DNA from: Perna viridis
Lineage: Eukaryota
Direction: 5' to 3'
Assembly: GCA_037379345.1 (NCBI GenBank)
Contig: CM074517.1
Coordinates: 48,468,577-48,532,576 of the forward strand
Length of the DNA: 64,000 nt
A program made the translations under genes and the position numbers. Below are positions 7,464 to 8,706 of this stretch, piece after piece. The stretch's first letter is position 1; the number at the start of each line of letters is the position of its first letter. The notes under the pieces were generated by a model. The model was not told the origin of the DNA and searched no databases. It was given only the letters and a program-made list of their open reading frames with translations.

Positions 7464-8706
7464 AAAGAGTAATCAAGGGAACCCAGGTTATAGCGGTAAT
7501 CAAAAGAATGTAATTCAGGGACAAAGATTAGACATGGAAAACAGACATACACAACAAAGAACATAAAGTACCTAAAATCATACATACAAAGTAACAAAAG
7601 CAAATGAGCAACTCGGACTCCACTAAAAACTGGGAGCATGGACCAGGTGCACCGGTAGGGTAAGAGTCCTCTGCTTTTCTGGAAACACCCGCCGAGTTGC
7701 TCATAAAAAGTCAAGTCCGGAGTAGACAAACAAGGAAAGGAAAACTATGACTCGTTGAATGTATCAGTTTTCATGGTGCAGATGGATACACCATCACGAT
7801 CCACGAGTTCATGATGACGACCACAAAACTTCTGTAGTGATGACTTCAATCTTGTAGCAACATAACCCTGTTCCAGAAGCCTATTTGTTAGAGTTCTAGC
7901 GCGATACAAAAAGTCTGCGCAGCCTCGGCAAGCTTTGGTATAACGTATGAGCTGTGATATGAACACTCCATACGCAGGTGCTGAAGGGATGCTGCCACAG
8001 ATGAAAGGAAAGTTGACAATTCTGAATGAAAGGTCATCACGTTTTTCGTAAAGTTTGGTCAATAGTTTTCCTTTACCATCGACCTCAAAGTGCAGGCCAA
8101 GACACGAGGCCGACCCCACGGCGCCCGCAGCATCCCCCACCCCAAGCTCGCCTGGACAGATGCGACGCACCAAATCCCCTAAACTAGGATTGTTTAAAGA
8201 TAATACGTCATCTATATAGCGGAAACTGAGACCGAAGGATCTAGCCAAATGACAGTCTCTCTTCTGACCAGATCAGCCACAAAGTCAGCCCCACAAGAGT
8301 GAAGGAATAGGTCAGCAAGCAAAGGAGCACAATTTGTTCCCACTGGAATGCCGACCGTTTGTTGAAAAACACGTCCACCACACTGGACAAATATGTTGTC
8401 GATTAAAATTTCCAACATTTTGTAAACATCATCCTCTGTATATTTGGAAGAAGATTTGGAATTATTTCTTACAAAGTATGAGGAATCTCTACCAAGAACT
8501 ATATATTTGTATCTAGGTGTACCATCTTTTTTGGAAAAACAACGATGTATAATGTTTATAAGTCGGGATTTTAACTGAGTATGGGGAATAGAATTATACA
8601 GTGTTGAAAAATCATAGGTTTTAATGCTATTATATTCAGATAATAGCCTTGAACTAATTGTCTTCAAAAGATATTTCGAATTTTTCAGGATCCACATTGA
8701 ATTAAT
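7464..8706 (-). mobile_element. Penelope-like retroelement, RT region plus 3' tail, frameshifted and A-to-G hypermutated
   Basis: ORFs 8212-8727 and 7745-8248: WILKNSK, YDFSTLY, QTVGIP(V)GTNCAPLLADLFL, FRYIDD, KRDDxSFRIVNFP, SQLIRY. No C-terminal GIY-YIG. 3' tail is shared with about 10 other copies in the window. Confidence 0.85.

What the first reader, a model, noticed from the sequence alone, without database searches (positions are those of the whole stretch)
7790..8345. Genomic fossil of A-to-I (ADAR-like) hyper-editing in a Penelope-like copy
Seen: aligning 8081-8173 with the sister copy at 19678-19770 gives 23 T-to-C differences on + (A-to-G on the element's sense strand) and only 6 others in 93 nt; about 23 of 30 As are converted. 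A third copy (about 39650-39730) has the A state. Conserved residues are destroyed in the same direction: YLD to [11 protein letters not shown] to GDAAGAVG, MGTN to VGTN, YEAD to CGAD, RNY to RGC, FYGR to FCGR. Established: clustered strand-specific A-to-G change is the ADAR signature. Inference: an edited element RNA was reverse transcribed and integrated, recording host RNA editing acting on a retroelement.
Basis: partly seen in the sequence, partly recalled or inferred. Interest (0 to 1): 0.72.

Follow-up and report, generated by a model that had tools for sequence, protein, structure and literature searches.

The report
ADAR edits fossilised in Naiad retrotransposons
This jumping-gene copy carries 43 clustered one-way A-to-G changes on its coding strand, and 17 other copies in the same animal genome carry similar tracts in the sequence pattern of the RNA-editing enzyme ADAR, so edited RNA was most likely copied back into inherited DNA.

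Summary
Observation confirmed. Window 7464-8706 (minus strand) is a 5'-truncated Naiad-type Penelope-like retrotransposon. Against 29 sister copies, 43 of 126 sense-strand As in 7920-8343 read G (26 of 34 in 8083-8170), versus 3 of 222 outside and 2 of 131 T>C. It founds no subfamily (next best 81-88%), and one of 8 public runs holds the edited core letter for letter. Seventeen other copies show sense-only A>G tracts at different sites. Mirror-motif scans gave 8 hyper-edited of 11 sense hits, 0 of 3 antisense hits. Pooled 5' neighbours rank U>A>C>G (p 1e-16, replicated p 2e-9); ordinary A>G changes show no such bias. No 3' bias; this copy alone is not significant. The genome encodes a dsRBD+deaminase ADAR. 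Best reading (0.88): ADAR-edited RNA reverse transcribed into the germline, in roughly 0.1-0.3% of copies; the duplex partner is unresolved. About 210 copies share a 3'-end A>G cluster, possibly an amplified edited lineage. My searches found no paper showing this for germline non-LTR copies; this scan noted the same on other genomes' DNA.

The parts
7464..8706 (-). 5'-truncated Naiad-type Penelope-like retrotransposon copy (RT C-terminal half plus 3' untranslated end)
   Evidence: aligns end to end with sister copies at 88-92%; 36 non-A>G differences in 1243 nt from the family majority; longer relatives carry CxC, DKA and an N-terminal GIY-YIG-like region
7920..8343 (-). A>G hypermutated tract, patchy
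   Evidence: 43 A>G of 126 A, 13 other changes, T>C 2 of 131
8083..8170 (-). saturated core of the tract
   Evidence: 26 of 34 A read G; held with 0 differences in a contig of run X19
8103..8295 (-). predicted long stem-loop of the unedited family RNA (19-bp outer helix 8295-8277 with 8121-8103); candidate local ADAR substrate
   Evidence: unedited copy L014 folds with z -5.14; helix probability 0.99; 9 of 10 As in the outer helix are changed here, but inner arms are lopsided, 2 of 16 versus 17 of 22
7748..8706 (-). RT reading-frame remnant in two frames (1-nt shift near 8257); FRYIDD kept, neighbouring conserved residues changed by A>G
   Evidence: translations and alignment; a sister ORF hits Pfam RVT_1 at E 1.6e-4, below the curated cut-off
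19232..19770 (-). unedited sister copy, followed directly by an inverted 3' fragment at 19772-20131
   Evidence: self-comparison of the window and alignment
39442..39983 (+). older unedited sister copy with the A state
11772..12202 (-). short unedited sister copy (3' end only)
   Evidence: 97.7% to the family majority, 2 A>G

Best explanation
This Naiad retrotransposon copy has about a third of its coding-strand As changed to G over 420 bases, most likely because its RNA was edited by ADAR while double-stranded and then copied into germline DNA by the element's reverse transcriptase. Shown: the tract, its one-way and one-strand character, its recurrence at different sites in 17 other copies, the 5' neighbour order U>A>C>G, an ADAR gene in the genome. 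Inferred: (1) a sense transcript of a source copy paired with antisense RNA (an inverted neighbour in a read-through transcript, or another transcript; an intrinsic stem-loop may have helped at 8103-8295); (2) ADAR deaminated A to inosine in patches; (3) the Naiad RT put C opposite inosine (established base-pairing) and inserted a 5'-truncated copy; (4) only sense RNA is a template, hence no T>C tracts. The copy is dead (truncated, frameshifted), so it is a by-product and record of editing, not a functional gene.
For: 43 of 126 A>G inside versus 3 of 222 outside. 9 of 29 non-self loci from a search with the core are A>G-hypermutated, also far outside the query; pairs share 0-11 other changes and only part of their A>G sites. 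Mirror motifs at 7834-7859: 11 sense hits, 8 hyper-edited (12-72 A>G, at most 5 T>C; 7 independent since L234/L235 are one duplication), versus 3 antisense hits, 0 hyper-edited (7 versus 0, p 0.016). 5' neighbour edited fractions T 184/273, A 155/296, C 92/232, G 75/241 (p 1.2e-16); replicate outside the motif 99/141, 73/124, 66/141, 38/121 (p 2.3e-9); scattered A>G in 139 ordinary fragments show none (p 0.69). Published ADAR1 order U=A>C>G (PMC11120146); oyster and abalone ADAR: T/A/C upstream, no strong downstream preference (PMC6651903). Edited core in run X19 with 0 differences; the 3' junction is in 4 of 4 runs from 3 studies. ADAR-type gene with dsrm and A_deamin at C7:762-776 kb.
Against: Context bias is not significant in this copy alone (5'-G 8/32 versus 35/91, p 0.20). 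No 3'-G enrichment, nor the 3'-A enrichment reported for invertebrates in PMC5625713: 3'-A is the lowest class (0.43, 0.45; not significant). The edited core was seen in only 1 of 8 runs, of unrecorded kind, possibly the assembly's source. No duplex partner was found: no inverted arm over the tract beside this copy, and edited As are not more often predicted paired than unedited ones (0.57 versus 0.56, p 0.23). The second mirror pair (8501-8526) gave 1 and 1 hits, neither hyper-edited. The first set of 9 copies was picked with an edited query. No RNA data were examined. For human L1, ADAR1 was reported to act without editing (PMC5224506).
Confidence: 0.88

Rival explanations
1. Reverse-transcriptase error burst: under skewed dNTP pools the Naiad RT misincorporates (C opposite A in the first strand or G opposite T in the second), giving sense A>G runs without any deaminase.
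For: Also predicts one strand and retroelement specificity; patchy tracts; dNTP-bias hypermutation by RTs is recalled from the HIV literature, from no call.
Against: 5' neighbour order U>A>C>G in two separate sets equals the published ADAR order; up to 76% of As changed with other changes at background; no tract of 10 or more of any other transition per 100 nt in 177 fragments.
Confidence: 0.05
2. An adenosine deaminase (ADAR or a tRNA-type deaminase) acted on DNA rather than RNA: on the sense DNA strand during second-strand synthesis or in an RNA:DNA hybrid.
For: ADARs can edit the DNA strand of model hybrids (PMC12925331); TAC is the most edited triplet (68 of 87), recalled as a tRNA-deaminase-like context.
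Against: The hybrid that retrotransposition certainly makes has antisense cDNA, whose editing would read T>C on the sense strand; 0 of 4 antisense-motif hits were hypermutated. Hybrid DNA editing was described at mismatches and with mutant enzymes.
Confidence: 0.04
3. Assembly or polishing artefact: edited RNA reads or base-calling errors were written into the assembly.
For: 7 of 8 runs have no contig over the core; clustered-mismatch sequencing artefacts exist (PMC2873906).
Against: Run X19 holds 138 nt over the core with 0 differences at depth 34; two runs of the same sample lack it, so holes are contig pruning; 17 other copies in both genomic orientations follow the element's strand, not the contig's.
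Confidence: 0.02
4. Ordinary divergence or a G-rich subfamily or gene-conversion tract from a distant relative.
For: A real multi-copy A>G cluster exists at the family's 3' end.
Against: No copy above 88% over 7900-8360 or above 81% over the whole core (one partial match at 88% over 73 nt); the changes are 43 A>G to 13 others and hit conserved residues; edited copies differ from each other in sites.
Confidence: 0.01

Closest known systems
ADAR-type A-to-G hyper-edited exogenous retroviruses (Rous-associated virus, avian leukosis virus, HTLV-2/STLV-3), as reviewed in PMC12925331 (passages; primary papers not read)
   Same: Clustered sense A>G, about half of the As, read as ADAR editing of RNA that was then reverse transcribed
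   Different: Those are infectious LTR viruses recovered from infected cells; here an endogenous Penelope-like retrotransposon, many separate copies standing in an animal genome
APOBEC 'DNA editing' of LTR retrotransposons fixed in vertebrate genomes (PMC4866542, passages; PMC2873906, passages)
   Same: Strand-biased hypermutation of retroelement copies left in the genome by a host deaminase and found by comparing sisters
   Different: G>A by cytidine deamination of cDNA, reported absent from 19 invertebrates; here A>G with ADAR context, which points to the RNA stage
Hyper-editing of repeat-derived dsRNA across Metazoa (PMC5625713, passages) and of herpesvirus RNA in molluscs (PMC6651903, passages)
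   Same: Clusters of A>G in repeats with 5'-G depletion
   Different: Seen in RNA against unedited DNA; here the edits stand in DNA
Naiad clade of Penelope-like elements (PMC8557442; abstract, passages, section 6)
   Same: N-terminal GIY-YIG, CxC and DKA motifs, RT at the C-terminus, 5' truncation, tens of thousands of copies, no hammerhead
   Different: The paper has no occurrence of 'hypermut' or 'antisense' and one of 'editing' whose passage I was not shown

Membership tests
ADAR hyper-editing signature | dense clusters of A>G with few other changes | tested here: met
   43 A>G to 13 others in 424 nt; 26 of 34 in the core
ADAR hyper-editing signature | changes on the RNA (sense) strand only | tested here: met
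   T>C 2 of 131 in the tract; 8 of 11 sense versus 0 of 3 antisense motif hits hypermutated; second pair uninformative, 0 of 1 and 0 of 1
ADAR hyper-editing signature | 5' neighbour U/A > C > G | tested here: met
   pooled p 1.2e-16 and 2.3e-9; control p 0.69; not significant for this copy alone (p 0.20)
ADAR hyper-editing signature | 3' neighbour preference (G in mammals and reptiles, A in invertebrates per PMC5625713; none strong in molluscs per PMC6651903) | tested here: inconclusive
   no significant 3' bias, p 0.12 and 0.28
ADAR hyper-editing signature | a double-stranded RNA substrate over the edited stretch | tested here: inconclusive
   intrinsic stem-loop z -5.14 overlaps the tract but arms are unevenly edited; no inverted arm at this locus; 17 of 89 random fragments have an inverted neighbour within 3 kb
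ADAR hyper-editing signature | ADAR enzyme encoded by the host | tested here: met
   dsrm E 6e-24 and A_deamin E 6e-64 in neighbouring exons on C7; A_deamin matches on 5 contigs
ADAR hyper-editing signature | edited RNA of the family present in germline cells; dependence on ADAR | not tested
Naiad (N-terminal EN+ PLE) | GIY-YIG endonuclease upstream of RT | tested here: met
   a long copy (L072) has IYGLECNLC..YVGET, later His and REEYWI..CN residues upstream of RT; read by eye against section 6 of PMC8557442; Pfam gave no GIY-YIG hit on the broken pieces
Naiad (N-terminal EN+ PLE) | CxC motif and DKG modified to DKA | tested here: met
   PPDCSCK and VVPADKAQNN in the family ORF
Naiad (N-terminal EN+ PLE) | no C-terminal endonuclease; no canonical hammerhead ribozyme | tested here: met
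   ORF ends about 290 nt before the 3' end; 0 Rfam matches in 5 loci, 23 kb
Naiad (N-terminal EN+ PLE) | 5' truncation, partial tandems, inverted 5' copies, very high copy number | tested here: met
   coverage falls from 65 to 10 of 89 fragments toward the 5' side; tandem in L021; inverted piece at 19772-20131; 8127 exact copies of one 26-nt motif
Naiad (N-terminal EN+ PLE) | insertion in fingers domain; full length 3.4-4.4 kb; RT phylogeny | not tested
   only 2.74 kb of the family was aligned; no tree built
APOBEC DNA-edited retroelements | G>A on the sense strand | tested here: not met
   4 G>A versus 43 A>G in the tract; direction fixed by 29 sisters

The most novel reading that the evidence does not exclude
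ADAR is a recurrent germline mutagen of Naiad retrotransposons: one to three copies in a thousand are hyper-edited at birth, and at least one edited 3' end stayed mobile and spread to 200 or more copies, so RNA editing shapes the element's evolution. The tracts map where the transposition template was double-stranded (mainly the 3' 900 nt), which implies that Naiad RT copies inosine-rich, antisense-paired or read-through RNAs.
Probability: 0.5. Interest if true: 0.8.

Novelty: new variant of a known kind. Interest (0 to 1): 0.68.

Why it matters
It is direct sequence evidence that a transient RNA modification becomes inherited DNA through retrotransposition, the invertebrate counterpart of APOBEC-edited retroelements in vertebrates. 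The copies give a datable record of germline ADAR activity and specificity, show that a Penelope-type RT can likely read through dense inosine, mark which parts of the transposition template were double-stranded (an open point for Penelope-like elements), and warn that such copies distort repeat dating and can be mistaken for RNA editing sites when RNA reads are mapped.

Tried and rejected
G-rich subfamily at this tract: rejected. One edited master for the hyper-edited copies: rejected within each set by pairwise sharing, except L234/L235, a segmental duplicate; pairs across the two sets and L266 were not compared. Fold-back at the insertion site as duplex source: no inverted arm over the tract here; of 20 loci mapped, L071 and L236 have an opposed copy that is itself unedited. 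Intrinsic structure as general explanation: no pairing enrichment over 17 copies at three span limits (p 0.93, 0.23, 0.85), and the well-folding stretch 8510-8387 is unedited here, 0 of 45. Editing confined to the 3' part: 0 hyper-edited hits at 8501-8526 against 2.2 expected, P 0.11, inconclusive; L037 and L049 are edited there. Holes in 7 of 8 runs are not taken as absence. The two mild A>G hits in random tiles (L093, L117) proved to be the shared 3'-end cluster, not separate events. A close parent copy was not found (best 96-97% at either end). Pfam did not detect the broken endonuclease; Rfam found nothing. No note of this scan matched by place or sequence. Paper searches aimed at a prior report listed none showing ADAR-edited germline non-LTR or Penelope copies; subscription journals are mostly outside the library and no supplements were read.

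Full report
Observation. A search of the own genome (723 Mb, 46 contigs) with 7900-8360 found 3838 candidates, 40 scored, best non-self 88%. I used the column majority of the 29 non-self loci returned to give direction. The copy runs 8706 to 7464 on the minus strand. In 7920-8343, 43 of 126 sense As read G, with 13 other changes and 2 T>C of 131 T; outside, 3 of 222 (Fisher p 2.8e-18). The core 8083-8170 has 26 of 34. The tract is patchy: 8343-8232 moderate, 8231-8185 clean, 8170-8083 near saturated, then scattered to 7920. Other differences number 36 in 1243 nt, against a median 5.9% for 54 random fragments, so the copy is fairly young.

Is it in DNA? One run search listed 21 runs, none on record as RNA. 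I laid 8 of them, all as contigs. In X1, X2, X3 and X18 a contig covers 7300-7492, 29 nt into the element, with 0 differences, so the insertion's 3' junction is present in 4 of 4 runs from 3 studies; depth over 8110-8163 is 0 in all four. At 99% likeness X19 has a 138-nt contig over 8063-8200 with 0 differences at depth 34; X20, X4 and X5 have none. X18 and X20 are the same sample as X19, so the holes reflect contig pruning. X19's kind is unrecorded; I infer genomic DNA from its 658 million letters, 30-kb longest contig and 0.80 word share over 6400-9000. It may be the assembly's source, so it excludes polishing error better than it shows the edited state in other individuals.

What the element is. 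Longer copies extend 5' into an ORF with PPDCSCK and VVPADKAQNN and, in L072, an upstream IYGLECNLC..YVGET...REEYWIRRLGT..PHGCN region. The ORF ends about 290 nt before the 3' end, Rfam finds nothing in 5 loci, and a sister ORF hits RVT_1 weakly (E 1.6e-4). These are the diagnostic features of the Naiad clade in PMC8557442 (abstract, passages and section 6 read). Pfam did not recognise the broken endonuclease. One 26-nt motif occurs 8127 times. The host was not identified.

Recurrence. Searching with the core gave 38 matches, next best 81% over the full query. Of 29 non-self loci, 9 are A>G-hypermutated (L032-L038, L040, L049: 22-94 A>G; T>C 2-6 in eight, 14 in the older L049), also far outside the query. 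They share only part of their A>G sites and 0-11 other changes, so they are separate events. Since that query was biased, I ran mirror motifs at 7834-7859, where this copy is unedited, fixing the same two TA dinucleotides to the sense-edited or the antisense-edited state. Sense: 11 hits, 8 hypermutated (12-72 A>G; L234 and L235 are one duplication, so 7 events), 3 ordinary. Antisense: 3 hits, none hypermutated (7 versus 0, p 0.016). A second pair at 8501-8526 gave 1 and 1 hits, both ordinary, among 2512 unedited copies; 2.2 were expected, so this is inconclusive. L266 adds one more (18 A>G, 8 others). Total: this copy and 17 others; pairs across sets were not compared. In 77 evenly spaced 10-kb tiles none of 89 fragments, and none of 88 fragments from two searches with unedited ends, had 10 or more of any one transition per 100 nt. 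Seven to eight hits per 8127 gives 0.1% as a floor; allowing for the need that both sites be edited, I infer 0.2-0.3%.

Context. Within tracts of the first 10 copies the edited fraction by 5' neighbour is T 184/273, A 155/296, C 92/232, G 75/241 (p 1.2e-16); by 3' neighbour there is no significant bias (p 0.12). The 11 sense-motif loci, counted outside the motif and including the duplicate, give 99/141, 73/124, 66/141, 38/121 (p 2.3e-9; 3' p 0.28). Scattered A>G in 139 ordinary fragments show no 5' bias (p 0.69), nor do T>C in the mirror context (p 0.33). This copy alone is not significant (p 0.20). Human ADAR1 prefers U=A>C>G (PMC11120146, passages); oyster and abalone ADAR edit after T, A or C with no strong downstream preference (PMC6651903, passages). 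PMC5625713 (passages) gives 5'-G depletion for all metazoans, 3'-G only for mammals and reptiles and 3'-A for invertebrates; that 3'-A excess is not seen here. CpG decay could lower the 5'-C class (inference) but not the 5'-G class.

Enzyme and substrate. PF02137 matches 25 places on 5 contigs; the C7 gene has dsrm (E 6e-24) and A_deamin (E 6e-64) exons. The duplex is unresolved. An unedited copy folds over this region with z -5.14, including a 19-bp helix 8295-8277/8121-8103, where this copy has 9 of 10 As changed; but the inner arms are uneven (2 of 16 versus 17 of 22), 4 of 6 As just 3' of the stem are changed, and the well-folding 8510-8387 is untouched, 0 of 45. Over 17 copies edited As are not more paired than unedited ones. 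No inverted arm covers the tract at this locus. Of 89 random fragments 17 have an inverted overlapping neighbour within 3 kb, and 3' parts are about six times commoner than 5' parts, so pairing with antisense repeat RNA at the source locus or in trans is my preferred, inferred source.

Mechanism. Most likely (0.88): a sense Naiad RNA became partly double-stranded, ADAR turned As to inosine in patches, and the Naiad RT copied it into a 5'-truncated germline insertion; only sense RNA serves as template, which explains the strand bias. Editing of the first-strand cDNA in the hybrid would read T>C and is not seen. Rivals: RT error under skewed dNTPs (0.05), deamination of sense DNA (0.04), artefact (0.02), subfamily (0.01).

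A possible amplified edited lineage. 6 of 123 sampled 3' ends share five A>G at TAC/TAT where older copies mostly have A; 210 copies carry two of them, and 30 examined mix shared sites, some shared non-A>G sites and extra private TA-site changes. An edited master that stayed mobile or recurrent hot spots both fit; no tree was built.

Comparison and novelty. ADAR-type A>G is reported in exogenous avian retroviruses and HTLV-2 (review PMC12925331, passages; primary papers not read). Genome-fixed hypermutation of retroelements is established for APOBEC G>A and was found absent in 19 invertebrates (PMC4866542, passages; PMC2873906, passages). One endogenous mouse provirus with an A>G excess lacked the ADAR context (PMC12548423, passages), and ADAR1 restricts human L1 mainly without editing (PMC5224506, passages). 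Searches listed no paper showing ADAR-edited germline copies of non-LTR or Penelope-like elements; most subscription journals are not covered and no supplements were read. This scan's notes describe the same phenomenon in Penelope and LINE copies of other genomes; they are unchecked AI notes, not support. They pointed me to PMC4866542, the avian cases, and the fold-back and spread ideas tested above; none matched this genome or sequence. Verdict: real, a new variant of a known kind, interest 0.68.

Noticed in passing
family 3' end, window-equivalent 7601-7511; loci L243-L272, L093, L117, L120, L121: 6 of 123 sampled copies share five sense A>G changes, all at TAC or TAT, where older copies mostly have A (7592 is mixed). 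A motif with two of them occurs 210 times; in 30 of these 7601 is G in 28, 7564 in 19 of 29, 7511 in 17 of 29, with extra variable TA-site changes. Either an edited master that multiplied or editing hot spots.
   Followed up: partly
L266 (G000 C2:21.36 Mb): A further hyper-edited copy: 18 A>G against 8 other changes, all within the 3' 240 nt.
   Followed up: partly
L008, window-equivalent 7867-7768: Mild tract: 7 A>G and 0 other changes in 100 nt in a young copy; light editing may be commoner than hyper-editing.
   Followed up: no
L032, L033, L037: 3 of the 9 first hyper-edited copies have internal deletions of about 35-270 nt in or beside edited stretches; possibly RT skipping; no background rate was measured.
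   Followed up: no
family RNA, window-equivalent 8295-8103 and 8510-8387: Two strongly folding stretches inside the RT coding region (z about -5), one with a 19-bp helix; conservation was not tested.
   Followed up: partly
G000 C3:51.79-51.82 Mb, C5:47.84 Mb, C7:0.76-0.78 Mb, C8:13.08 Mb, C9:4.76 Mb: At least six adenosine-deaminase (PF02137) gene loci, two in tandem on C3; only the C7 gene was checked for dsRBDs. A Naiad copy lies in an intron of that gene (L145 about 7050-8050).
   Followed up: partly
window 8709-8880 and 8883-9680: The copy's 5' end abuts a repeat with inverted ends, followed by a roughly 40-nt minisatellite array.
   Followed up: no
window 24977-25462 (+) and 41914-45982 / 53560-58513: An exon of an angiotensin-converting-enzyme-like gene (Peptidase_M2, E 8e-42) and a tandem pair of genes with a weak START-domain hit (E 9e-4).
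   Followed up: no
whole genome: 89 fragments of this family in 770 kb of evenly spaced tiles, which scales to roughly 80,000 fragments.
   Followed up: partly
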